Below, piece by piece: positions 1,009 through 11,637 of a stretch of 64,000 nucleotides of DNA (its first letter is position 1; each line of letters opens with the position of its first letter). Origin of the DNA: Acidobacteriota bacterium (GTDB taxonomy: Bacteria > Acidobacteriota > Thermoanaerobaculia > Multivoradales > JAGPDF01); NCBI GenBank assembly GCA_045862895.1, contig BTUO01000007.1:169020-233019 (forward strand), in the 5' to 3' direction. The notes under the pieces were generated by a model, which saw only the letters and a list, made by a program, of their open reading frames with translations, was not told the origin of the DNA and searched no databases. A program made the position numbers and the translations under genes.

Positions 1009-3555
1009 TCAGCGGCGGATCCAGAGGGGGGAGAGCAGCGGCTGGTCGACGGCGGTGGCGCCGCGCAGGTCGACGGCGGCGCCGAGACCCCAGTCGTGAT
1101 CCCCCTCCGGATCGAGCAGGGTCTGGACCACCTCCCACTGGCGGTCGCCGGTCGGGGTGATCTTGGTCCACTCGTGGCGGCGCGCTTCCGGCGTATCGAG
1201 CAGGGCCGCGTGCTCGGCGAAGAACGGCGCGAGCTCGGACTCGAGGCGCGCGGCGTCCCACGGCTGCTGCGGGTCGACCGCGATCCGCTCGGCGGCCTCC
1301 TCCCAGTCCTTCTGCGCCAGGGCGTGGACCAGCAGGTGCATCTCCGAGCGCAGCCGCGCGGCCAGCGCGCGCGGACTCTCGACCAGCTCGCGCACCCAGA
1401 TCGCCTCGACGATCCGCTCGCGCTCCTCCTTCTTGCGCACCAGCAGCTCCGGATGGAGCAGGCTCTCCCACTCCTCGAGCAGCGAGGAGTCGGTCAGCTC
1501 GATCAGCGTGCGGAAGAAGGCGACGGCGTCGCGCACCGGGTCGTCCTTGGCGGCGTCCGGGACGTTCTGCTCGAGGGTGCGGTAGAGCTGCGAGAGGTAG
1601 CGCAGCAGCACGCCCTCGCTCCGCTGCAGCTGGTAGAGCCGGACGTAGTCGTCGAACGAGGAGAAGGTCTCCCACATCTCGCGGCCGATCGACTTGGGCG
1701 AGATGTCCTCGCCGCCGACCCACGGATGCAGCCGCGCGAAGGCGTCGAAGTGGCCGGCGAGATAGTCGGCGAGCGGCCGCGGATGGGTCACCGTCTCGAG
1801 CCGCTCCATGCGCTCCTCGTAGGAGAGGCCGTCGGCCTTCATCTCGGCGACCAGGCGCCCCTTCTCGCGGTCGGCCTGCTTACGCAACACGACCACCGGG
1901 TCCTCGAGTACCGATTCGACCACCGTCAGCAGGTCGCCGACGTAGCTCTCCGAGGCGGGCTCGAGCCGCTGCACCATCTCGACCAGGAACAGCGACAGCG
2001 CGTGGTGGAGCGAGAAGTCGAACTGCAGGTCGGGCGCGACCACGATCCATCGGTACTCGGTGCGGGTGTCCTTGCGGGTCTCGAGGATGCCGGCGCGGCC
2101 GAGCGAGCGGATCAGCACGGCGGCGCGCGTCAGGTGGCGCTTCCTCGCCCCCTCCTCGTCGTGGCAGGAGGCGATCAGCTCGCGCAGCGAGGCGAAGTTG
2201 CGGCGCCCGGGGTCGTCGATCTCCTCGTCGCGCTGGAGCAGCTGGAGCACCATGCCGTGGGTGATCCGGAAGCGCGAACGCAGCGTCTCCGGCGGACGCT
2301 CGATCAGCTTGCGGAAGGTCTCCTCGGTCCACACCACCTCGCCCGGCTTCGGCTTGAACGAGGCTCCGCCCTTCTTGCCCTTGCGCTCGGCGACCTTGCG
2401 ATCGACGACGTGCTCGGGCGCCTGCGCCACCACCAGGCCGCGGTCGTCGAACCCCTTGCGGCCGGCGCGGCCGGCGATCTGCTGGAAGTCGCGCACCGCG
2501 AGGATGACGATCTTCTTGCCGTCGAACTTGGCGAGCTTCGAGAACAGCACCGTCCGGATCGGGATGTTGACCCCGACGCCCAAGGTGTCGGTGCCGCAGA
2601 TCACCTTGAGCAACCCCTTCTGCGACAGCTGCTCGACCAGCAGGCGATACTTGGGCAGCAGCCCGGCGTGGTGGAGGCCGACGCCGAACGAGACGTAGCG
2701 CCGGATCTCCTTGCCGTACGGCGTGTCGAAGCGGAAGTCGCCGATCGTCTCGCGGATCGCCTCGCGCTCCTCGCGCGTGGTCATCGGCTGTGAGGTCAGC
2801 GACTGCGCGAGCTCGGCGCAGTCGCGCTGGGTGAAGGAGACGACGTACACCGGCGAGAGCTTGCGGCGCAGCAGCTCGTCGATGGTCTCGTGGAGCGGCG
2901 TCTCGCGCCACTCGAAGTCGAGCGGAACCGGGCGCAGCACCGAGGTCACCCGCGCCACCTCGCGCCCGGTGGCGCGCTCGAGCCGCTCCGAGATCGGCCC
3001 CATGTCGCCCAGCGTCGCCGACATCAGCAGGAAGCGGGTCGCGGGCAGCATCACCAGCGGCACCTGCCAGGCCCAGCCGCGCTCGTCGTCCGAGTAGTAG
3101 TGGAACTCGTCCATCACCACCTCGGGGGCGTCGAGCAGCGGCCCCGAGCGCAGCGCCATGTTGGCCAGCACCTCGGCGGTGCAGCAGAGCACCTTCGCCT
3201 CCGGATTGATCGAGGCGTCGCCGGTCAACATGCCGACCCGTTCGGCGCCCAGCTCGTCGCAGAGCGCGAAGAACTTCTCCGACGCGAGCGCCTTGATCGG
3301 GCTGGTGTAGTACGAGATCCGGCCCTCGGCGAGCGCCTTGAAGTGGAGACCGAGAGCGACCAGCGATTTGCCCGAGCCCGTGGGCGTCGCCAGCACGACG
3401 TGACGCCCCGACCAGATCTCGAGCAGCGCCTCTTCCTGCGCCGGGTAGAGCTGGAACCCCGCCTGCGCGCACCACTCGAGGAATCGGCTGAACAGCTCGT
3501 CGGCCGGAACGGGCGCCTCCGGCAGGAAGTCGGCGAGCGGTCGGTGGGTGCTCAT
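1009..3555 (-). CDS. Ski2/HelY-like DEAD/DEAH-box helicase (DUF3516-type C-terminus)
   Basis: Walker A TPTGSGKS, SPIKALASEK, DEFH, LLMSAT, TDTLGVGVNIP, QIAGRAGRKG. 848 aa. Confidence 0.93.
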   Translation of the reverse strand: MSTHRPLADFLPEAPVPADELFSRFLEWCAQAGFQLYPAQEEALLEIWSGRHVVLATPTGSGKSLVALGLHFKALAEGRISYYTSPIKALASEKFFALCDELGAERVGMLTGDASINPEAKVLCCTAEVLANMALRSGPLLDAPEVVMDEFHYYSDDERGWAWQVPLVMLPATRFLLMSATLGDMGPISERLERATGREVARVTSVLRPVPLDFEWRETPLHETIDELLRRKLSPVYVVSFTQRDCAELAQSLTSQPMTTREEREAIRETIGDFRFDTPYGKEIRRYVSFGVGLHHAGLLPKYRLLVEQLSQKGLLKVICGTDTLGVGVNIPIRTVLFSKLAKFDGKKIVILAVRDFQQIAGRAGRKGFDDRGLVVAQAPEHVVDRKVAERKGKKGGASFKPKPGEVVWTEETFRKLIERPPETLRSRFRITHGMVLQLLQRDEEIDDPGRRNFASLRELIASCHDEEGARKRHLTRAAVLIRSLGRAGILETRKDTRTEYRWIVVAPDLQFDFSLHHALSLFLVEMVQRLEPASESYVGDLLTVVESVLEDPVVVLRKQADREKGRLVAEMKADGLSYEERMERLETVTHPRPLADYLAGHFDAFARLHPWVGGEDISPKSIGREMWETFSSFDDYVRLYQLQRSEGVLLRYLSQLYRTLEQNVPDAAKDDPVRDAVAFFRTLIELTDSSLLEEWESLLHPELLVRKKEERERIVEAIWVRELVESPRALAARLRSEMHLLVHALAQKDWEEAAERIAVDPQQPWDAARLESELAPFFAEHAALLDTPEARRHEWTKITPTGDRQWEVVQTLLDPEGDHDWGLGAAVDLRGATAVDQPLLSPLWIRR

Positions 3556-3591
3556 CCGGCGATTGTGGCACGACGAAGTAGCATCGACGGC
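3556..3591. promoter_or_regulatory. back-to-back -10 elements of two putative leaderless promoters
   Basis: Minus strand: TG-C-CACAAT, 6 nt before the ATG at 3555. Plus strand: TAGCAT (3579-3584), 7 nt before the ATG at 3592. No SD for either gene. Confidence 0.6.
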
Positions 3592-4254
3592 ATGAGAAGA
3601 CTCCTCGCCCTGCTCCCGTCCGTCACTTTCGCCCTCCTGGCCCCGTCCGCGGCACCCGGTGCCAAAGCCGCGCCGATCGACAGCGTCCCGCTGGTCTGGC
3701 GCCCGTCCGCTTCGGCCGCCGTGCCGCCGATCGATGCCGCGCCGTTCGAGAAGGTCCGCATCCGCGTCGCGGCGTTCGCCGACGCGCGCGGCGTCGAGGC
3801 GGGGCAGCTCGGCACGCGCGACGGTTCGGTGCCGGTGACCACCCCCGACGACGTCGCCGAGTTCGCGACCGACCGCTTCCTCGCCGCGCTCGAGGAGGAG
3901 GGGCTCACGGCCGTCGACGACCGCTTTCTCGAGAGGATCGGCGCCGACCTGGTCGAGCGACCCGACGGCGTCGTCACGCGGGTCGCCGGCCGCGTGATCA
4001 CGACGCGGGTCGAGATCGGCAAGGAGCTCGAGACCGAAGTGCAGCTCGAGCTGACGGTGACGGTCGATCCGAAGAAGGACGAGCCCGCGAAGCCGGCGCT
4101 GTTTGTTGGCACCGCCACCGGCCGCTCGGGCCGCAGCGCCCGCTCCTACGAGGTCGGCGACGCCCAGGAGGCGCTCTCCGACGCGCTCGGCGAGGCGATC
4201 GCCCAGCTGCTGCGCACCGAGGCGTTCGTGAAATCGCTGCGAGGCGAGCGCTAG
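3592..4254 (+). CDS. exported hypothetical protein (loosely YajG-like alpha/beta fold)
   Basis: ATG 3592 within ORF 2890..4254. Signal-peptide-like MRRLLALLPSVTFALLAPSAA. Host-like codon usage. 220 aa. Confidence 0.75.
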   Translation: MRRLLALLPSVTFALLAPSAAPGAKAAPIDSVPLVWRPSASAAVPPIDAAPFEKVRIRVAAFADARGVEAGQLGTRDGSVPVTTPDDVAEFATDRFLAALEEEGLTAVDDRFLERIGADLVERPDGVVTRVAGRVITTRVEIGKELETEVQLELTVTVDPKKDEPAKPALFVGTATGRSGRSARSYEVGDAQEALSDALGEAIAQLLRTEAFVKSLRGER

Positions 4255-4277: not shown

Positions 4278-5393
4278 CTACCGGCCCACCCGCGCCGCGC
4301 CCATCGCCGCCAGGTACTCGCGGTCGAACGCGGCGAGCTGGCTCTCGAGCTCCGAGTAGGGGCCCGGGACGTAGGCTGCCGAGGCGACCCCCTTCTGCGT
4401 GTTGGCGCAGAGCTCCCAGTCCTGGCGATTGGTCAGGTCCCAGAACTCGATCGCCGGCGCCGGATCGAAACCGGGGGCGGCGACCGCGTCCGGATGGAAG
4501 AGCCAGTCGCAGACGATGCGCGTGGTGGTGCGCCCGAGCGGCACGGCGCGGTGAACCAGCACGTAGTCGGGGTGGAGCGACAGGAACATCGACGGAAAGA
4601 CGGTGTAATAGAGGACGTGGCCGCGGTCGGCGTCGGCGAGACCGGGCAGCAGCGGCGCGCAACGGGCGCCGCCCATCGTCATCGAGCCGTCGCGCTCGGT
4701 CATCCACATCGGCCCGCCCAGCACCGCCCCCTCGTCGAGGTCGTTGACCGTGTTGCGGTACGGCGTCAGCTTGTTGAGGTGCGGGTGGACGCCGGGGCAG
4801 TGGTAGCACTCGCTGTAGTTGTGGAAGAACAGCTTCCAGTTGGCCTCGACCGTGTACTCGGTGCGATGGACGCGCGCGAGCTCGGCCATCCGCCAGCGTT
4901 CGAAGCGGCCGGTGAGCGGCGCCATGGCGCGCGCGAACGGCTCGGGGTCGCCGGCCAGCGAGACGAACAGCAGCCCCTCGTGCTCGGCCATCGCGCAGGG
5001 GAGCAGGCCGTGGTCGGCGCGGTCGAAGCCCGCCACGTCCTGCATGCCGGGCGCGGCCCGCAGCGCGCCGTCGAGCCCGTAGGTCCACGCGTGGTACGGG
5101 CACTGGAAGGCGCGCGGCGCCTCGCCCGCCGACTCCCCGCAGATCCGGCTGCCGCGGTGGCGGCAGAGGTTGTGGAAGGCGCGCACCGTGCCGTCGTCGC
5201 CGCGCACCAGGATCACGCTCTCGCCGAGCAGCTCGTGGACGAGGAAGCTCCCGGGCTTCGGCAGCTCCGAGACGTGCCCCGCCGCCAGCCAGCGGCGGCG
5301 GAAGATGCGCTCGCGTTCCTCGGCGAAGATCTCGTCCGAGGTGAAGTACTCGCCGGTGAGGGTGTGCTGTCCGAAGGCGGTGCGCTGCTTCAT
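4278..5393 (-). CDS. Rieske non-heme iron oxygenase alpha subunit (choline monooxygenase/GbcA-like)
   Basis: Rieske ligands CRHRG...CPYH and mononuclear Fe motif NYSECYHCPGVH...QD. Start MKQRTAFGQH at 5393. 371 aa. Confidence 0.92.
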   Translation of the reverse strand: MKQRTAFGQHTLTGEYFTSDEIFAEERERIFRRRWLAAGHVSELPKPGSFLVHELLGESVILVRGDDGTVRAFHNLCRHRGSRICGESAGEAPRAFQCPYHAWTYGLDGALRAAPGMQDVAGFDRADHGLLPCAMAEHEGLLFVSLAGDPEPFARAMAPLTGRFERWRMAELARVHRTEYTVEANWKLFFHNYSECYHCPGVHPHLNKLTPYRNTVNDLDEGAVLGGPMWMTERDGSMTMGGARCAPLLPGLADADRGHVLYYTVFPSMFLSLHPDYVLVHRAVPLGRTTTRIVCDWLFHPDAVAAPGFDPAPAIEFWDLTNRQDWELCANTQKGVASAAYVPGPYSELESQLAAFDREYLAAMGAARVGR

Positions 5394-5422
5394 GGTCGAC
5401 TCCGGAGCGCGCCCGGCGCCCT

Positions 5423-5459
5423 TCGGGGCGCGTCGGCGCTCGCGCCCCGATGCTATGCT
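5423..5459. promoter_or_regulatory. overlapping divergent -10 elements plus a perfect 10-bp inverted repeat (candidate operator or 5' hairpin)
   Basis: TCGGGGCGCG-N8-CGCGCCCCGA at 5423-5450. TAGCAT on minus (5450-5455) and TG-C-TATGCT on plus (5451-5459). Confidence 0.5.
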
Positions 5460-5486
5460 CGCCTCGCTCTTCCGACACCACCCCGC

Positions 5487-6677
5487 ATGCCGATTCCGTC
5501 CCCCTTCCACGAGCGTACCCGCCCGCTGTGCCGGAGCTGGCGCTGGAAGGACTGGGCGGGCTACGCCGCGGTCTGCAGTTACGACACCACCCACGACCGC
5601 GAGTACTTCGCCTTCCGCGAATCGGCCGGCCTGCTCGACGTTTCGCCGCTCTACAAGTACGAGGTGAAGGGCCAGGACGCCGCCGTCGCGCTGTCGCGCA
5701 TGATGGTGCGCGACGTCGGCAGGATCAAGGTCGGCCGCGTCGCCTACTCCTGCTGGTGCGACGACGACGGCAAGGTGGTCGACGACGGTACCGTGGCGCG
5801 GCTCGCCGAGGATCACTTCCGGGTCACCGCCGCCGATCCGACGCTGCACTGGCTGCTGGCGGTCTCGCGCGGCCTCGCGGTCGAAGTCGAGGACTCGAGC
5901 GTCGCGCTCGCCGCGCTCGCGCTGCAGGGGCCGACGTCGCGCGCGATCCTCGCCGCGGCGAGCGACGCCGATCTCTCGGCGCTGCGCTTCTTCGGCGTCA
6001 CGCCCGCCCGCATCGCCGGGATCGACGGCTGGATCACGCGCACCGGTTACACCGGCGACCTCGGCTACGAGGTCTGGGTGGCGCGCGAGCGCGCGCTCGA
6101 GCTCTGGGACGGGTTGATGGCGGCCGGCGCCTCGTTCGGCATCACCCCCGCCGGGCTCGACGCGCTCGACATGGCGAGGGTCGAGGCCGGGTTCATCCTG
6201 CTCGGCGTCGACTACTTCAGCTCGACCAAGGTGGTCCTCGAGTCGCGCAAGTCGACCCCGTTCGAGCTCGGCTTCGACTGGATGGTCGACCTCGACCGCG
6301 GCCCGTTCGTCGGCCGCGCCGCGCTGGCGCGCGAGAAGCGCGACGGCTCGAAGTGGGCGCTGGTCGGTCTCGAAGTCTCCTGGGAGGCGCTCGAGGCGCT
6401 CTACGAGAGCTACGGGCTGCCGCCGTCGCTGCCGGCGCACGCCCGGCGCGACGCGATCCTGGTCTCGGCCGACGGCCGCCAGGTCGGCCAGGCGACCAGC
6501 CACACCTGGTCGCCGCTGCTCAAGCGGTACGTCGCGATCGCCTCGGTGCGCCCGGAGCACGCGGCGGCCGGAACCCGACTCGAGCTCGAGCATACGGTCG
6601 AGTACGAGCGGCGGTCGGTGCCGGCGACGGTGGTGTCGCTGCCGTTCTTCGACCCGGAGAGGAAGAAGAAGCCGTGA
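5487..6677 (+). CDS. aminomethyltransferase family protein (GcvT-like, folate-binding)
   Basis: AGLLDVSPLYKYEVKG, DDGKVVDDGTV, ALQGP, TRTGYTGDLGYE, ARVEAG, PFFDPERK. 396 aa from ATG 5487. Confidence 0.92.
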   Translation: MPIPSPFHERTRPLCRSWRWKDWAGYAAVCSYDTTHDREYFAFRESAGLLDVSPLYKYEVKGQDAAVALSRMMVRDVGRIKVGRVAYSCWCDDDGKVVDDGTVARLAEDHFRVTAADPTLHWLLAVSRGLAVEVEDSSVALAALALQGPTSRAILAAASDADLSALRFFGVTPARIAGIDGWITRTGYTGDLGYEVWVARERALELWDGLMAAGASFGITPAGLDALDMARVEAGFILLGVDYFSSTKVVLESRKSTPFELGFDWMVDLDRGPFVGRAALAREKRDGSKWALVGLEVSWEALEALYESYGLPPSLPAHARRDAILVSADGRQVGQATSHTWSPLLKRYVAIASVRPEHAAAGTRLELEHTVEYERRSVPATVVSLPFFDPERKKKP

Positions 6678-8263
6678 GCACGCGCTGGGACGCGATCGTC
6701 GTCGGCGGCGGCCACAACGGGCTGGTCTGCGCGGCCTATCTCGCCAAGGCCGGCCGCAAGGTCCTGGTGCTCGAGCGCCGCCACCAGGTCGGCGGCGCCA
6801 CCACCACCGAGGAGATCCATCCGGGATTCCGCTACTCGTGCTGCTCGTACGTGGTGTCGCTGCTGCGGCCGTGGATCATCCGCGACCTCGACCTGCCGCG
6901 CCACGGCTACGAGATCCTGCCGCTCGAGTCGACCTTCACGCCGTTCCCCGACGGTCGCTATCTGCTGCGCGACGGCGACCCGGAGCGCACGCGGCGCGCG
7001 ATCGCCGCCTTCTCGCCGCGCGACGCCGAGGTCTACAAGCGCTTCGGTCAGGAGATGGCCGAGCTGGGGCGTCTGGTCAAGCCGCTGATCGACGCGCCGG
7101 CCCCGGACCCGACCTCGTTCGCCCCCGGCGACCTGCTGCAGATCGGCCGCCTCGCCCGTCACCTGCGCGCCCAGGGCGAGAAGCGGCTGATCGGCAATCT
7201 GAAGATGCTGACCGCGAGCGCGGTCGACTTCCTCTCCGAGTGGTTCGAGTGCGAGCAGTTGATCGCGCCGATGTCGGTCTCCGGCATCATCGGCACCTTC
7301 CTGGGCGTGCGCTCGCCGGGCACCGCCTACGTGCTGCTCCACCACTACATGGGGGAGATCGACGGCTCGTACCGCGCCTGGGGGCTGCCCAAGGGGGGCA
7401 CCGGCGCGATCGCGGCCGCGATCGCCTCGGCCGCGCGCGCCGCGGGTGCCGAGATCCGGGTCTCGGCGCCGGTCGCCCGGGTGCGGATGCGTCGCGGTCG
7501 CGCCGACGGGGTCGTGCTCGAGGACGGCACCGAGCTCGACGCCAAGGTGGTGATCTCGGGAGTCGATCCTCACCGCACCTTCCTCGGGCTGGTCGGCGAA
7601 GAGCACCTCGACGGCGAGTTCGCCCGCTCGATCCGGCGCTTCAAGATGCGCGGATCCTCCGGCAAGGTCAACCTCGCGCTCGACGGGCTGCCCGATTTTT
7701 CGTGCCTGCCGGGCGTCGGTCCGCACCTCGCCGGCGACATCACCATCGCGCCGTCGATCGACTACCTCGAGCGCGCCTACGACGACGCCAAGTACGGCGC
7801 CTTCTCGCGGCGCCCGTTCATGGACATCGTGATCCCGTCGCTGACCGATCCGACGGTGGCGCCGCCGGGTCAGCACGTGATGTCGATCTTCGTCCAGTAC
7901 GCGCCCTACCACCTCAAGGAAGGACCGGCCGACTGGGAGAACCAGCGCGAGGCCTTCGGCGACGCGGTGATCGACACGCTCTCGGAGTACGCGCCCAACC
8001 TGAAGAGCCGGATCCTCCATCGCCAGGTGCTGTCGCCCTGGGACCTCGAGAAGGTCTACGGGCTGACCGAAGGCAACATCTTCCACGGCGAGCTCTCGCT
8101 CGAGCAGCTCGCCTTCCTGCGCCCGGCGGCCGGCTGGAGCCGCTATCGCACGCCGGTCGACCGGCTCTGGATGTGCGCCTCGGGGACCCACCCCGGCGGC
8201 GGCATCATGGGCGCCCCGGGCGCCCTCTGCGCGCGGGCGCTGCTCGAGACGAGGACGGTCTAG
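6674..8263 (+). CDS. phytoene desaturase-like FAD-dependent oxidoreductase (PYROXD2-like), copy 1
   Basis: DAIVVGGGHNGLVCAAYLAKAG...LERR, GNIFHGE, GTHPGGGIMGAPG. GTG start overlaps the upstream stop (GTGA). 529 aa. Confidence 0.9.
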   Translation: MSTRWDAIVVGGGHNGLVCAAYLAKAGRKVLVLERRHQVGGATTTEEIHPGFRYSCCSYVVSLLRPWIIRDLDLPRHGYEILPLESTFTPFPDGRYLLRDGDPERTRRAIAAFSPRDAEVYKRFGQEMAELGRLVKPLIDAPAPDPTSFAPGDLLQIGRLARHLRAQGEKRLIGNLKMLTASAVDFLSEWFECEQLIAPMSVSGIIGTFLGVRSPGTAYVLLHHYMGEIDGSYRAWGLPKGGTGAIAAAIASAARAAGAEIRVSAPVARVRMRRGRADGVVLEDGTELDAKVVISGVDPHRTFLGLVGEEHLDGEFARSIRRFKMRGSSGKVNLALDGLPDFSCLPGVGPHLAGDITIAPSIDYLERAYDDAKYGAFSRRPFMDIVIPSLTDPTVAPPGQHVMSIFVQYAPYHLKEGPADWENQREAFGDAVIDTLSEYAPNLKSRILHRQVLSPWDLEKVYGLTEGNIFHGELSLEQLAFLRPAAGWSRYRTPVDRLWMCASGTHPGGGIMGAPGALCARALLETRTV

Positions 8264-8266
8264 ACG

Positions 8267-9859
8267 ATGGCGGCGAAGCGCTTGGACGCGATCGTGATCG
8301 GCGGCGGGCCCAACGGCCTCGCCGCCGCGACGCGCCTGGCGAAGCGCGGTCGCGGGGTGCTCCTGCTCGAGGCGCGGCCGGCGCTCGGCGGGCTCTCCGG
8401 TCGGCTCGAGTTCCACCCCGGCCACGCCGCGCCGGGCGTGCTCCACGACGACGGCCGGCTCTCGGAGCTCGCGGTCGATGCGCTCGGCCTGGCCGGGCAC
8501 GGCCTCGCCTTCCGCGACGCGCCGGCGGTACTGGTCGCCGAGCGCGAGGGGAGCGGGATCCTGCTCGAGCGCGACGACCGCGCCACCGCGGCCCGCCTCG
8601 CCGAGCGTTCGGCGCGCGACGGCGAGGCCTGGATCGCCTACCGCGCGTTCTTCCGGCGCATCGCGCCGTTCGTCGGCGCGCTGATGTCGTCGCCGCCGCC
8701 GCCGCTGTCGCCGACGACGATCGGCGACTGGGCCCGGCTGGCGAAGCGCGGCCTCGGACTCGCGCGACTCGGCCGCCGCGACGGCGTCGAGCTCGCGCGC
8801 GTGGCGCCGATGTGCGTCGCCGACTACCTGAACGAACGCTTCACGATCCCGGCGCTGGTCGAGGCGCTCGCCGGTCCGGCGGTGGCCGGCACCTGGTCGG
8901 GCCCCTGGTCGGCGGGGACGGCGACCCAGTTGATCCTGCACGAGACGGCGCCGGCGCGGCGCATCGTCGGGGGGCCGGCGGCGCTGGTCGCGGCGCTCGA
9001 GCGCGCGGCGCGCGCGGCCGGAGTCGAGATCCGCACCGGCACCGCGGTCGAGCGCATCCGGATCGACGGCGACGGGGTACGCGGCGTCACGCTCGCCGGC
9101 GGCGAGGCGATCGACGCGACGACGGTGGTCGCCACCTGCGACCCGAAGCGCGCGATGCTCGCGCTCGCCCAGCCGGGCACGCTGCCGCTCGCCGCCGAGG
9201 AAGAGTTCCGTCGGATCCGCTCGCGCGGCACCGCCGCCAAGGTCCATCTCGCGCTCGACGGTCCGTTCGAGCTGGCGACCCGACCGGGGGAGCGCCTCGA
9301 AGAGATCCGGATCGGCGGCGGCCACGTCGACGACCTCGAGCGCGCCTTCGACGCCGTCAAGTACCGGCAGGTCTCGACGCGCCCCTGGCTCGACGTCCGC
9401 GTGCCGAGCGTGGACGACCCGTCGCTGGCAGCGGCCGGCGGCGCGACGATCTCGGTACTGGTGAGCTTCGCTCCGCACCAGGTCGAGGGAGGCTGGACCG
9501 ACGAACGTCGCGAGGCGCTCGGCAACGCCGTCGTGGCGCGGCTCGAGGAGCACTCGCCGGGCCTCGGCGCGCGCGTCGTCGGCGGCCAGGTCCTCACCCC
9601 GCAAGACCTCGAGCGCGACTTCCACGTCACCGGCGGCCAGCTCCACCACGTCGAGCCGGCGCTCGACCAGCTCTTCCTGCTGCGCCCGACGCCGGGCGCC
9701 GCCCGCTACGCGACCGCCGTCCCCGGCCTCTACCTCGGCGGCGCCGGCAGCCACGGCGGCGGCGGGGTCGGCTGCGACGCCGGCGTCCTGGCGGCGGAGG
9801 CGGCGCTGAGAACCGGCGCCGGCGGTCGACTCCCGCGGCCGGACTCCTCAGGGCGTTGA
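8267..9859 (+). CDS. phytoene desaturase-like FAD-dependent oxidoreductase, copy 2 (divergent)
   Basis: DAIVIGGGPNGLAAA...LLEAR, GGQLHH, GSHGGGGV. Colinear with copy 1. 530 aa. Confidence 0.88.
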   Translation: MAAKRLDAIVIGGGPNGLAAATRLAKRGRGVLLLEARPALGGLSGRLEFHPGHAAPGVLHDDGRLSELAVDALGLAGHGLAFRDAPAVLVAEREGSGILLERDDRATAARLAERSARDGEAWIAYRAFFRRIAPFVGALMSSPPPPLSPTTIGDWARLAKRGLGLARLGRRDGVELARVAPMCVADYLNERFTIPALVEALAGPAVAGTWSGPWSAGTATQLILHETAPARRIVGGPAALVAALERAARAAGVEIRTGTAVERIRIDGDGVRGVTLAGGEAIDATTVVATCDPKRAMLALAQPGTLPLAAEEEFRRIRSRGTAAKVHLALDGPFELATRPGERLEEIRIGGGHVDDLERAFDAVKYRQVSTRPWLDVRVPSVDDPSLAAAGGATISVLVSFAPHQVEGGWTDERREALGNAVVARLEEHSPGLGARVVGGQVLTPQDLERDFHVTGGQLHHVEPALDQLFLLRPTPGAARYATAVPGLYLGGAGSHGGGGVGCDAGVLAAEAALRTGAGGRLPRPDSSGR

Positions 9860-11637
9860 CTTCCCGGGCGATCGCAGCGGCCGGCCTGATTTTCGCCGTC
9901 GTGCTCGGCGCGGCCTCGTGCTCGCCGCGACCGGTGCGGCTCGAGGAACGGCCGAACATCCTGTTGATCGTCATCGACACGCTGCGCGCCGACCACCTGC
10001 CCTTCCACGGCTACCACCGCGACACCGCACCGCGGTTGAGGAAGCTGCTGGCCGAAGGCGGCGTCGTGTTCGAGAACGCTTACGCACCCGCGGCGTGGAC
10101 AGCTCCATCGGTCGCGGCGATCCAGACCGGCAAGGACCCATCCCGTCTCGTTCCCCGGCACGACCTGCGCGGCTTCTCGATCCCCGGCAACGAGACGACG
10201 ATCGCCGAGCACCTGAGGGAGGCCGGCTACGAAACCGCCGGTTTCGTGGGGAACCTCTTCCTTCACGCCGGCATGGGCTTCGGACAGGGATTCGAGAAGT
10301 ACTGGGTGGTCCCCGGCGGCTACGAGTCGATTCCGAAACCGGCCGAGACGGTCCTCGAACCGGCGATGGCCTGGCTCGAATCCCGTCGCGAGAACCCCGA
10401 GCCTTACTTCCTCTACGTGCACTTCATGGATCCGCACGACCCGTACACGAGCCCGCGGCTCGTCGACGGCAGATCGGAGTACTTTCCGGACTACTCCGGC
10501 CCGATTCGCGGCGAGCACGTCCACCCCCTGAATCAAGGCTCGATGCAACTCTCGGGTGGCCTGGCCGAGGACATTCAGCACCTGCGCGCTCTCTACGACA
10601 GCGAGATCCTGCACGTCGACCAGGCGGCGGCTCGCCTGATCGAAGCCGCCGAAGAGCTCGGCGGGCGCGAGACCGTGGTCGTGCTGCTCTCCGATCACGG
10701 AGAGGAGATTCGCGACCACGGCGGCTGGACGCACGGCCGTACGCTCTACCAGGAGATCGCCCACGTACCGCTGGCGGTTCGTGTCGCCGGCAAGGTCCCG
10801 GGCGGACGGCGCATCGCGGCCAACGTCACCGCGGTCGACGTCGCCCCGACACTGCTGGCAGCGGCGGGCGTGAGCGGGGAGGACCTCGACGGCGTCGACC
10901 TGCTGCCGGCAATCCTCGATCCGCTTGTCGAACCGCCACGCCGTCCGATCTTCATCCGCCACTGGCAGCGCGGTCCCATTCGAGCAGCCCTCGTGGTGGA
11001 CCAGCACAAGACGATGGTGTTCAACCACCGTCAACCCTTCTCCCCGGAACCGGGAGTCGAGGCCAACACGGCGGCCGAGGACCTCCGGCGCCTCCCGCGC
11101 TTCGCGAGCTTCGACCTCGCGGTCGATCCGAGCGAACGCCGGCCGGCGATGCCTTCGGCCGACGACATCGAGACGGTCTATTCCTTCCTCGACCCGACGC
11201 TGGACGGCGTGCGGGTCGTTCTCCGAGGCATCGAGGAGGGCCGGACGGCCTCGGGCACCCTGCGCTTCTCAGCCGCCCCGACGGGAACCCTTCCGCTCTT
11301 CCTCGCGGATGCCGACGAGGTCCGGGTGGTCGGTTCGAGCGTGACCTTCCGCCTGACCGGCGAGGCGCCGCCGAAGGGGTTTCTCGTGCTCGGCGTTCCC
11401 GGCACGCTCGAGGCCGTCGAGCTGGATCCGGGGCTCCCGATCGCCGTCGAAGTCGGCGGCGGCGCGACCTGGAGCGGGCTCCCGGTCGCCGACGGTGCAC
11501 TGCGAAGATCGAGTTGGCCGCGCTGGTCGAATCGCGCGAGCCTTCGGATCTGGAGCCGTGAGAGTCGGGCACTGGCTCCCGAGCGGCCGCTCGACGCCGA
11601 GACCCGGGCCAAGCTCCAGGCGCTCGGGTACTTGTGA
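9856..11637 (+). CDS. sulfatase-like hydrolase/transferase, probable lipoprotein, Thr nucleophile
   Basis: PNILLIVIDTLRADHL, AWTAPSVAAIQTG, YVHFMDPHDPY, LLSDHGEE, HVPL. Lipobox-like LGAASC. TTG start overlapping the upstream TGA is inferred. Confidence 0.85.
   Translation: MTSRAIAAAGLIFAVVLGAASCSPRPVRLEERPNILLIVIDTLRADHLPFHGYHRDTAPRLRKLLAEGGVVFENAYAPAAWTAPSVAAIQTGKDPSRLVPRHDLRGFSIPGNETTIAEHLREAGYETAGFVGNLFLHAGMGFGQGFEKYWVVPGGYESIPKPAETVLEPAMAWLESRRENPEPYFLYVHFMDPHDPYTSPRLVDGRSEYFPDYSGPIRGEHVHPLNQGSMQLSGGLAEDIQHLRALYDSEILHVDQAAARLIEAAEELGGRETVVVLLSDHGEEIRDHGGWTHGRTLYQEIAHVPLAVRVAGKVPGGRRIAANVTAVDVAPTLLAAAGVSGEDLDGVDLLPAILDPLVEPPRRPIFIRHWQRGPIRAALVVDQHKTMVFNHRQPFSPEPGVEANTAAEDLRRLPRFASFDLAVDPSERRPAMPSADDIETVYSFLDPTLDGVRVVLRGIEEGRTASGTLRFSAAPTGTLPLFLADADEVRVVGSSVTFRLTGEAPPKGFLVLGVPGTLEAVELDPGLPIAVEVGGGATWSGLPVADGALRRSSWPRWSNRASLRIWSRESRALAPERPLDAETRAKLQALGYL

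What the first reader, a model, noticed from the sequence alone, without database searches (positions are those of the whole stretch)
4278..9859. Rieske oxygenase + GcvT-like + twin PYROXD2-like FAD enzymes: uncharacterised demethylation-type pathway
Seen: a coupled operon (aminomethyltransferase, FAD copy 1, FAD copy 2) divergent from a GbcA/choline-monooxygenase-like Rieske alpha subunit. No reductase, transporter or regulator is adjacent. Established: DMGDH/SARDH fuse a flavin oxidase to a GcvT-like THF domain to capture methyl carbon, and Rieske enzymes of this clade N-demethylate quaternary amines. Inference: a split or heteromeric analog using phytoene-desaturase-fold subunits, acting on an unknown N-methylated amine. 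Copy 2 may be a structural or electron-transfer partner.
Basis: partly seen in the sequence, partly recalled or inferred. Interest (0 to 1): 0.55.

Follow-up and report, generated by a model that had tools for sequence, protein, structure and literature searches.

The report
Folate-linked PYROXD2-type demethylase gene cluster
An uncultured acidobacterium carries a widely conserved but uncharacterised gene set (a betaine-type Rieske oxygenase, a folate-binding one-carbon catcher and two flavoproteins related to the orphan human enzyme PYROXD2) that most likely strips methyl groups from a methylated amine, which gives PYROXD2 a testable function.

Summary
At 4278-9859 a Group V (quaternary-amine type) Rieske oxygenase gene is divergent from a tightly packed operon: GcvT-like folate protein, flavoprotein FAD1, then flavoprotein FAD2.

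The conserved core is GcvT-like + FAD1-type ("alpha") flavoprotein, usually with a second, faster-evolving "beta" copy. In the alpha clade, 68 of 80 sequences have a GcvT-like gene within 3.5 kb, across at least eight phyla. In the sister clade of stand-alone homologues the figure is 2 of 23. The Rieske gene is accessory (20 of 77 loci).

Natural GcvT-alpha and alpha-beta fusions exist. Eukaryotic PYROXD2-like proteins are often fused to a glutathione-dependent formaldehyde-activating (GFA) domain.

FAD1 is 40-44% identical to eukaryotic proteins named PYROXD2, but my tree places PYROXD2 in the sister clade, not inside FAD1's clade. FAD2 keeps the FAD-binding motifs but has lost about half of the alpha-invariant residues.

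Best reading: a split, folate-coupled oxidative N-demethylase. The substrate is unknown. A lysine-pathway guess was not supported.

This scan has met the same module before on other DNA, in at least ten follow-ups with the same general reading. I found no paper that characterises it.

The parts
4278..5393 (-). Rieske non-haem-iron oxygenase alpha subunit, Group V (quaternary-amine) type; the only Ring_hydroxyl_A gene in this genome
   Evidence: Pfam Rieske + Ring_hydroxyl_A. The best NCBIfam match is GbcA at 243 bits, below its 670 cut-off. The best solved relatives are 3n0q, Stc2 (3vca/4qup) and CntA. Motifs: C77/H79, C98/H101, Y193, E195, C196-x-x-C199, H198, H203, D325. It is the single copy in the genome.
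5394..5486 (.). 93-bp divergent intergenic region between the Rieske and GcvT-like genes (presumed promoters)
   Evidence: Sequence read. The consensus scan found no sigma-70-like site, so any promoter here is inferred only from the gene arrangement.
5487..6677 (+). Stand-alone GcvT-like tetrahydrofolate-binding protein (one-carbon catcher)
   Evidence: Pfam GCV_T + GCV_T_C. The best matches are the C-terminal half of TMAO demethylase (NCBIfam 277 bits; PDB 9q5a 180 bits), then T-proteins and SoxA. T-protein core motifs are at residues 97, 185 and 224. The canonical gcvT lies elsewhere, on contig 10.
6674..8263 (+). FAD1, the 'alpha' PYROXD2-type flavoprotein (CrtI/amine-oxidase fold); presumed catalytic subunit
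   Evidence: Pfam Amino_oxidase/NAD_binding_8. 60-88% identical orthologues occur across phyla. AF2 pLDDT is 93; the nearest folds are CrtD/CrtI, then flavin amine oxidases. The alpha clade has support 99. It is 40-44% identical to eukaryotic PYROXD2-named proteins.
8267..9859 (+). FAD2, the 'beta' paralogue: FAD-binding motifs kept, much of the alpha-invariant residue set lost
   Evidence: 34% identical to FAD1. It falls in a separate, fast-evolving group outside the alpha clade. It keeps GxGxxG, E34, G40-G41 and the C-terminal H-x-G-G, but lacks Y59, W236, F406, N468 and others.
9856..11637 (+). Sulfatase-family (alkaline-phosphatase superfamily) lipoprotein gene; probably co-transcribed but specific to this lineage, not part of the conserved module
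   Evidence: Pfam Sulfatase. The TTG start overlaps the FAD2 stop; the N-terminus has a signal peptide with a lipobox-like Cys; no C/S-x-P-x-R motif lies near the N-terminus. It is absent from all 100 other loci.

Best explanation
The cluster encodes a two-stage oxidative N-demethylation route for a quaternary or tertiary methylated amine. Stage 1 is inferred from family membership: the Group V Rieske oxygenase hydroxylates an N-methyl group of a trimethylammonium compound, as GbcA and Stc2 do, and releases one methyl carbon. It draws electrons from a reductase encoded elsewhere or from a generic one. Stage 2 is inferred from synteny, fusions and fold: the FAD1 (alpha) flavoprotein oxidises the remaining N-methyl C-N bond(s) to an iminium. 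The GcvT-like protein, held against alpha, captures the one-carbon unit on tetrahydrofolate as 5,10-methylene-THF, as the GcvT-like domains of dimethylglycine oxidase, sarcosine oxidase and TMAO demethylase do. FAD2 (beta) is a degenerate paralogue. It probably still binds FAD and serves as a structural or electron-transfer partner in an alpha-beta-GcvT complex. Shown here: gene identities, operon packing, co-conservation, fusions, and the alpha/beta residue asymmetry. Not shown: the substrate, folate use, complex formation and the electron acceptor. Neighbours in other lineages are a BetI-type repressor, BCCT, PotD-like or APC transporters, omega-aminotransferases and amino-aldehyde-type dehydrogenases. 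These suggest a methylated omega-amino acid, diamine or lysine-type compound whose demethylated product is a primary amine.
For: Operon packing: 4-nt overlap and 3-nt gap. Co-conservation: GcvT + two FAD genes in 18 of 20 acidobacterial loci, and FAD + GcvT within 3 kb in 71 of 101 loci. In the alpha clade 68 of 80 sequences have GcvT within 3.5 kb, against 2 of 23 in the sister stand-alone clade. Gene order differs between phyla while the linkage persists. Fusions: P0128 is GcvT(1-403)-alpha(427-947) and P0121 is alpha-beta. The AF2 model of P0128 has pTM 0.81 despite a disordered linker. The GcvT-like protein scores closer to the formaldehyde/iminium-capturing members (Tdm 277, GcvT 222, SoxA 187 bits) than to the methyl-transfer members (DmdA 145, LigM/DesA 66-68), and it keeps the T-protein core motifs. 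In Tdm this domain receives channelled formaldehyde (abstract of PMC13619132). The Rieske protein has the bridging Glu, the Cys-x-x-Cys pair and the 2-His-1-Asp site of Group V. At least two distinct Group V subfamilies recur next to the module. GFA domains (Pfam: glutathione-dependent formaldehyde-activating enzyme) are fused to PYROXD2-like flavoproteins in six of the seven GFA-flagged records I re-scanned, two of them from eukaryotic transcriptomes. Human PYROXD2 variants associate with N6,N6-dimethyllysine, N-methylpipecolate, trimethylamine and dimethylamine (PMC7878905, PMC5780481, PMC13352909). This genome has no other GCV_T-containing demethylase.
Against: No member of the alpha, beta or linked GcvT-like clades has been assayed, and I found no paper on them. 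No Rieske reductase of the GbcB/CntB type was found in this 98%-complete genome. The Rieske gene is absent from about three quarters of the module loci. Eukaryotic PYROXD2 falls in the stand-alone sister clade, so the human genetics applies only by family resemblance. The fusions are singleton metagenomic records and could be gene-calling artefacts. pTM is only an indirect sign of an interface. The catalytic role of GFA itself has been questioned (my recollection, not checked here).
Confidence: 0.6

Rival explanations
1. Same enzymes, different chemistry at stage 1. The Rieske enzyme cleaves the C-N bond of a trimethylammonium compound as CntA does and releases trimethylamine. The alpha/beta/GcvT module is then a folate-coupled trimethylamine/dimethylamine dehydrogenase.
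For: The Rieske protein has Tyr193 at the position of CntA Tyr203, the pi-cation residue of subgroup Va, which Stc2 and GbcA lack. Human PYROXD2 was first linked to urinary trimethylamine and dimethylamine. Aldehyde dehydrogenases recur near the module and could take the aldehyde left by such a cleavage.
Against: Overall the Rieske protein scores higher against the demethylases Stc2, 3n0q and GbcA (200-243 bits) than against CntA (142 bits). Omega-aminotransferase genes sit inside the proteobacterial operons, which implies a primary-amine product rather than ammonia. Most module loci have no Rieske gene.
Confidence: 0.12
2. The GcvT-like protein is a direct methyltransferase to tetrahydrofolate (DmdA/LigM type) acting on an S-, O- or N-methyl donor. 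The two flavoproteins then oxidise either 5-methyl-THF or the demethylated product.
For: The GcvT family includes such enzymes, and they do appear among the matches (DmdA 145 bits, LigM/DesA 66-68 bits).
Against: It scores clearly closer to Tdm, T-protein and SoxA. GFA fusions of the flavoprotein family point to a formaldehyde-level product. The tight, ancient pairing and fusion of the flavoprotein with GcvT mirrors the oxidase-plus-GcvT logic of DMGO and DMGDH.
Confidence: 0.08
3. Alpha/beta is an amine oxidase or dehydrogenase that cleaves a non-methyl C-N bond (polyamine-oxidase-like). The GcvT-like protein then handles a glycine-like or aminomethyl fragment.
For: After the CrtI-type enzymes, the nearest folds are flavin amine oxidases such as putrescine oxidase, MAO and NicA2. 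PotD-like binding proteins, omega-aminotransferases and PuuC/aminobutyraldehyde-type dehydrogenases recur nearby.
Against: No H-protein or P-protein partner is linked. Group V Rieske enzymes and BetI/BCCT neighbours point to methylammonium compounds. The GFA fusions imply free formaldehyde.
Confidence: 0.08
4. The flavoproteins are carotenoid or other isoprenoid desaturases/ketolases (CrtI/CrtO-like), and the linkage to GcvT is incidental.
For: The best NCBIfam names are CrtO (318 bits) and crtI_fam (141 bits). The closest solved folds are CrtD-like 4rep and CrtI 4dgk.
Against: All scores are far below the curated cut-offs (1000 and 238), and identity to the solved structures is below 20%. No carotenoid genes are adjacent. 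The GcvT linkage holds across at least eight phyla with shuffled gene order.
Confidence: 0.02

Closest known systems
Folate-coupled flavoprotein N-demethylases: dimethylglycine oxidase (PDB 1pj5), dimethylglycine and sarcosine dehydrogenases, 4-methylaminobutyrate oxidase
   Same: A flavin amine oxidase/dehydrogenase joined to a GcvT-like tetrahydrofolate domain that captures the methyl carbon. The GcvT-like protein here matches their folate domains.
   Different: Those enzymes use a DAO-family flavin domain fused N-terminally to the GcvT domain in one chain. Here the flavoprotein has the CrtI/PYROXD2 fold, is a separate gene (fused in the opposite order in rare cases, P0128) and usually comes as an alpha/beta pair.
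Heterotetrameric sarcosine oxidase (SoxABDG) and N-methylglutamate dehydrogenase
   Same: A multi-subunit demethylase in which a catalytic flavoprotein works with a second nucleotide-binding subunit that carries the GcvT-like folate site (SoxA 187 bits).
   Different: The subunit families differ and there are no SoxD/SoxG equivalents. Here the GcvT-like part stands alone instead of being fused to the second subunit.
Trimethylamine N-oxide demethylase Tdm (PDB 9q5a; PMC13619132)
   Same: Its C-terminal GcvT-like domain is the closest named and solved relative of the GcvT-like protein. In Tdm that domain receives channelled formaldehyde.
   Different: In Tdm the catalytic partner is an N-terminal metal domain, not a flavoprotein. 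The score of 277 bits is far below the 1100 cut-off.
Group V Rieske oxygenases: GbcA/BmoA, stachydrine demethylase Stc2, carnitine monooxygenase CntA, choline monooxygenase
   Same: The Rieske and mononuclear-iron ligands, the bridging Glu and the Cys-x-x-Cys pair. The substrates of the named enzymes are quaternary amines.
   Different: Below the GbcA equivalog cut-off (243 vs 670). Shorter (371 aa). It mixes overall similarity to subgroup Vb with the Va-type aromatic residue. No partner reductase was found.
Eukaryotic PYROXD2 (orphan mitochondrial flavoprotein)
   Same: 40-44% identity over the full length to plant, Capsaspora and protist proteins named PYROXD2. These proteins keep 80 of the 114 alpha-invariant residues.
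   Different: PYROXD2 groups with the stand-alone bacterial clade that lacks both a GcvT neighbour and a twin. Some eukaryotic members carry a GFA domain instead.
CrtI/CrtD/CrtO carotenoid desaturases and ketolases
   Same: The same fold, and the closest solved structures.
   Different: Below all family cut-offs, under 20% identity to the solved structures, and no carotenoid gene context.

Membership tests
Group V Rieske oxygenases (quaternary-amine oxidation) | Rieske [2Fe-2S] ligands C-x-H ... C-x-x-H | tested here: met
   C77, H79, C98 and H101 align with Stc2 and CntA.
Group V Rieske oxygenases (quaternary-amine oxidation) | 2-His-1-carboxylate iron site and a bridging carboxylate | tested here: met
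   H198, H203, D325 and E195 lie in the same motifs as CntA E205/H208/H213 and Stc2.
Group V Rieske oxygenases (quaternary-amine oxidation) | Cys-x-x-Cys pair beside the iron site (present in some Group V members, PMC10952381) | tested here: met
   C196-Y-H-C199.
Group V Rieske oxygenases (quaternary-amine oxidation) | Dedicated NADH-dependent flavin/[2Fe-2S] reductase partner (GbcB/CntB type) | tested here: not met
   None is adjacent. None was found in the genome with a Leisingera reductase query. The only two NAD_binding_1 hits are an Nqr-linked protein and a PyrK-like protein. The genome is 98.4% complete, so absence is not proven.
Glycine betaine monooxygenase GbcA (NCBIfam NF058607 equivalog) | Whole-protein score above the curated cut-off | tested here: not met
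   243 bits against a cut-off of 670, and only the N-terminal 215 residues align well.
Glycine-cleavage T-protein GcvT | Equivalog score; role with H- and P-proteins | tested here: not met
   TIGR00528 gives 176 bits against 235.85, and PRK00389 gives 222 against 300. A separate canonical gcvT scoring 336 bits lies on contig 10. The Pfam GCV_T and GCV_T_C domains and the core motifs are present.
DMGDH/SARDH/DMGO-type folate-coupled demethylases | DAO-family flavin domain fused to a C-terminal GcvT-like domain | tested here: not met
   The flavoprotein is of the PF01593/CrtI-fold type and is encoded separately. This argues that the system works like these enzymes, not that it is a member.
DMGDH/SARDH/DMGO-type folate-coupled demethylases | THF-dependent capture of the methyl carbon as 5,10-methylene-THF | not testable with these tools
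   This needs an enzyme assay.
CrtI phytoene desaturase family (TIGR02734) / CrtO ketolase (NF045689) | Score above the curated cut-off, and carotenoid gene context | tested here: not met
   FAD1 scores 141 against 238 and 318 against 1000; FAD2 scores 105 and 163. No crt genes occur in the flanks.
PYROXD2 family | Full-length similarity to eukaryotic PYROXD2 | tested here: met
   FAD1 is 40-44% identical over about 520 columns to proteins that their sources name PYROXD2. The ESM Atlas neighbours carry that name. No mammalian sequence was available, because of the length filter.
PYROXD2 family | Orthology (same clade as eukaryotic PYROXD2) | tested here: not met
   The eukaryotic clade (support 99) nests with stand-alone bacterial homologues, and the alpha clade is a separate group (support 99). 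The tree is a quick LG+G4 search with a midpoint root only.

The most novel reading that the evidence does not exclude
PYROXD2-type flavoproteins form a previously unrecognised class of formaldehyde-level N-methyl amine dehydrogenases. They have been coupled to a one-carbon catcher at least twice: to a GcvT-like folate protein in bacteria and archaea, and to a GFA glutathione domain in protists. If so, human PYROXD2 would directly demethylate free N-methyl-lysine-type metabolites (N6,N6-dimethyllysine, N-methylpipecolate) or small methylamines. A further speculative twist for this locus, which has a Rieske oxygenase but no detectable reductase: the alpha/beta flavoprotein pair may pass the electrons it gains from the later demethylations to the Rieske enzyme for the first one.
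Probability: 0.4. Interest if true: 0.8.

Novelty: new variant of a known kind. Interest (0 to 1): 0.62.

Why it matters
Folate-coupled oxidative demethylation is known only from DAO-family flavoenzymes, sarcosine oxidase and Tdm. Here the same logic appears to be built on a different flavoprotein family, one with no characterised member. The module is common in soil and marine bacteria: FAD1-like genes occur in 135 of 401 Acidobacteriota genomes sampled, and the module occurs in at least eight phyla. It may therefore be a sizeable unrecognised route for turnover of methylated amines and for feeding methyl carbon into the folate pool. The family also includes human PYROXD2, a mitochondrial protein with a reported infantile disease link and very strong metabolite associations but no known reaction. 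The bacterial gene linkage and the GFA fusions make one specific reaction type directly testable.

Tried and rejected
I did the synteny survey with the genome search, the fetch from genomes and the search for related loci instead.

2. Lysine/5-aminovalerate (Dav) pathway idea. The accessory genes (CN-hydrolase, class-III aminotransferase, ALDH, acyl-CoA synthetase, ACAD, APC permease) resembled that route. NCBIfam did not name them DavT, DavD or GcdH. They came out as GntE/HemL-like or generic omega-aminotransferases, PuuC/BADH-like dehydrogenases below cut-off, and a generic ACAD. Only the substrate class is retained.

3. Sulfatase as part of the pathway (for example a choline-sulfate route). 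It is a predicted lipoprotein, scores 108 against the 433 cut-off for choline sulfatase, and is absent from all other loci.

4. Reductase hunt in the window's own genome: negative.

5. ETF as a linked electron acceptor: ETF genes exist but lie on another contig.

6. The promoter and terminator scan found nothing above chance.

7. Five of the seven literature searches looked for the bacterial module or for a proposed PYROXD2 reaction and found nothing.

8. True co-folding of separate chains is not possible with these tools. I folded a natural fusion as a proxy.
Full report
**Anatomy**

The window is about 70% GC, so long ORFs appear in every frame. I assigned genes by third-position GC phase.
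- A 371-aa Rieske oxygenase gene at 4278-5393 (-) is divergent, across 93 bp, from three + strand genes.
- The GcvT-like gene is at 5487-6677.
- FAD1 is at 6674-8263. Its GTG start overlaps the GcvT stop by 4 nt and follows a purine-rich stretch.
- FAD2 is at 8267-9859, 3 nt after the FAD1 stop.
- Pfam and NCBIfam confirm the four identities, and FAD1 and FAD2 are 34% identical end to end.

It missed a sulfatase-family gene whose TTG start overlaps the FAD2 stop. That gene encodes a predicted lipoprotein. It also missed a convergent amidase gene. Neither these nor the other flanking genes recur at related loci.

**Conservation**

FAD1 is unusually well conserved: 75-88% identity among the best metagenomic relatives. 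It matches 135 of 401 sampled Acidobacteriota genomes at E <= 1e-50. That tally includes two unpublished genomes, G024 and G152; no other claim here rests on them.

- In 20 acidobacterial loci fetched with 9-kb flanks, GcvT-like + FAD1 + a second FAD gene occur together in 18. A Rieske gene is present in 7 and the sulfatase in none.
- A scan of one genome per species returned 80 loci from Acidobacteriota, Planctomycetota, Gemmatimonadota, Chloroflexota, Actinomycetota, Pseudomonadota (including cultured Kiloniella laminariae DSM 19542, Leisingera sp. JC11 and Massilia sp. HP4), Fidelibacterota, Dormibacterota and an archaeon.
- Nearly every homologue at 47% identity or above has a GcvT-like neighbour, and more distant ones mostly do not.
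- Three layouts occur: GcvT (either orientation)-FAD-FAD; FAD-FAD-GcvT in Proteobacteria; and GcvT-FAD with a single flavoprotein in Chloroflexia and Acidimicrobiia.

Linkage that survives rearrangement across phyla is strong evidence for a functional unit.

**Family structure**

A FastTree of all 166 flavoprotein copies, and a quick IQ-TREE (LG+G4) of an 81-row subsample, agree. The subsample comprised 24 alpha, 15 beta, 23 stand-alone and 19 eukaryotic-type rows; the other rows were left out for speed. Both trees have a midpoint root only.
- An "alpha" clade (support 99) holds FAD1 and its orthologues. Of its 80 sequences, 68 have GcvT within 3.5 kb and 64 have a twin.
- The sister clade of stand-alone homologues has 2 of 23 with GcvT nearby and none with a twin.
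- All second copies, FAD2 included, lie outside the alpha clade, on long branches. In the IQ-TREE they form one group (support 89), which is consistent with a single old duplication.

Of the 107-114 columns that are at least 95% conserved in alpha, the beta copies keep 52-63. The retained ones include the dinucleotide-binding GxGxxG, E34, G40-G41 and the C-terminal H-x-G-G. The beta copies have lost a coherent set (Y59, L63, I206, H224, W236, F406, N468, F470) that the stand-alone clade retains. Lineages with a single flavoprotein show that beta can be dispensed with.

**Physical coupling**

A search for longer proteins found one clean GcvT(1-403)-alpha(427-947) fusion (P0128), one clean alpha-beta fusion (P0121) and several less clean ones. 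These are singleton metagenomic records, so gene-calling artefacts cannot be excluded.

I folded P0128 with an unpaired alignment of 66 GcvT-like and 69 alpha sequences. The result was mean pLDDT 88.7 and pTM 0.81, although the 26-residue linker is disordered. If the two halves floated freely, I would expect pTM to stay near the size share of the larger half, about 0.55. The value therefore suggests a defined interface. I could not inspect the predicted aligned errors.

**The parts**

- FAD1 folds with pLDDT 93. Its nearest solved folds are the CrtD-like 4rep and CrtI 4dgk, followed by flavin amine oxidases (NicA2, MAO, putrescine oxidase), all below 20% identity. It fails the crtI_fam and CrtO cut-offs.
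- The GcvT-like protein is closest to the C-terminal domain of TMAO demethylase, then to T-proteins and SoxA, and is further from the methyl-transfer members DmdA and LigM. It keeps the T-protein core motifs. The genome has its canonical gcvT elsewhere and no other GCV_T-containing demethylase.
- The Rieske protein is the only Ring_hydroxyl_A gene in the genome. It has the Rieske ligands, the bridging Glu, the 2-His-1-Asp site and the Cys-x-x-Cys pair described for Group V quaternary-amine oxygenases. Overall it scores closer to the demethylases Stc2 and GbcA than to CntA. Even so, it carries a Tyr at the position of CntA Tyr203, the pi-cation residue of subgroup Va.
- At least two distinct subfamilies with these Group V-type motifs sit next to the module in different lineages. 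This argues that quaternary amines are a recurrent entry point.
- No GbcB/CntB-type reductase was found.

**Link to PYROXD2**

Human PYROXD2 has no assigned reaction. Its variants associate with trimethylamine, dimethylamine, N-methylpipecolate, N6,N6-dimethyllysine and N2-acetyl-N6,N6-dimethyllysine.

FAD1 is 40-44% identical to plant, Capsaspora and protist proteins that their sources name PYROXD2, and these share 80 of the 114 alpha-invariant residues. In my tree the eukaryotic clade nests among the stand-alone bacterial homologues. It is therefore sister to the GcvT-linked alpha clade, not part of it.

I also found that many protist and metagenomic PYROXD2-like proteins carry an N-terminal GFA domain (Pfam: glutathione-dependent formaldehyde-activating enzyme). 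A fresh Pfam scan confirmed it in six of the seven GFA-flagged records I re-scanned, two of them transcriptome-derived. A second, chemically different one-carbon catcher attached to the same flavoprotein family is independent support for a formaldehyde-level product, that is, for oxidative demethylation.

**Substrate**

- In Proteobacteria the operon sits with a BetI-type repressor, a BCCT or PotD-like transporter, an omega-aminotransferase, an amino-aldehyde-type dehydrogenase, and sometimes an acyl-CoA synthetase, an ACAD, an FNR-type reductase or an OYE-type flavoprotein.
- In Acidobacteriota the recurrent neighbours are an APC permease, a CN-hydrolase and an amidase.

This fits an N-methylated omega-amino acid, diamine or lysine-type compound whose demethylated product is transaminated. 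A specific lysine/5-aminovalerate assignment was not supported by NCBIfam naming.

**Verdict**

I file it as a new variant of a known kind. It works like the folate-coupled flavoprotein demethylases but fails their defining architecture. It is also not a member of the CrtI, GbcA or GcvT equivalog families.

The same module has been reported repeatedly by this scan on other DNA, with the same general reading. I tested those claims here rather than relying on them.

The held literature does not describe the module or a reaction for PYROXD2.

Noticed in passing
window:9856-11637: A sulfatase-family gene whose TTG start overlaps the FAD2 stop (TTGA). The N-terminus looks like a lipoprotein signal peptide. 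The usual C/S-x-P-x-R formylglycine motif is missing near the N-terminus, and the metal-site region reads D-T-L-R-A-D-H, so it may not be a true sulfatase. It is absent from all related loci.
   Followed up: partly
L048:599-10597 (G004): Six tandem FAD1-like flavoprotein genes in one 10-kb stretch, with no GcvT-like gene within the 20 kb fetched. Four of them belong to the alpha clade.
   Followed up: no
P0145, P0150, P0152, P0130, P0164, P0166: Eukaryotic and metagenomic PYROXD2-like flavoproteins with an N-terminal GFA (glutathione-dependent formaldehyde-activating enzyme) domain. About 20 of the 120 hits listed carry the precomputed PF04828 label.
   Followed up: partly
P0141: A 1096-aa protein that joins an NDP-forming acyl-CoA synthetase to the N-terminal part of a PYROXD2-like flavoprotein. 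The same synthetase type follows the module in Kiloniella (L089:12503-14602).
   Followed up: no
window:3552-4254: The 188-aa minus-strand ORF at 3552-4118 is a shadow ORF. The GC3 phase supports a + strand gene at about 3592-4254 (220 aa) that has no Pfam match and no counterpart at related loci.
   Followed up: partly
window:13837-15366: A 509-aa + strand gene in an 80% GC stretch, with no Pfam match and not conserved at related loci.
   Followed up: no
L035, L042, L044, L053, L057, L061, L063: A second Rieske subfamily next to the module, with the iron-site motif N-Y-L-D-G-G-Y-H-V-P. From memory this resembles plant choline monooxygenase. A third variant, N-Y-L-E-S-Y-H-V-P, occurs in Gammaproteobacteria (L083, L084, L104).
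   Followed up: partly
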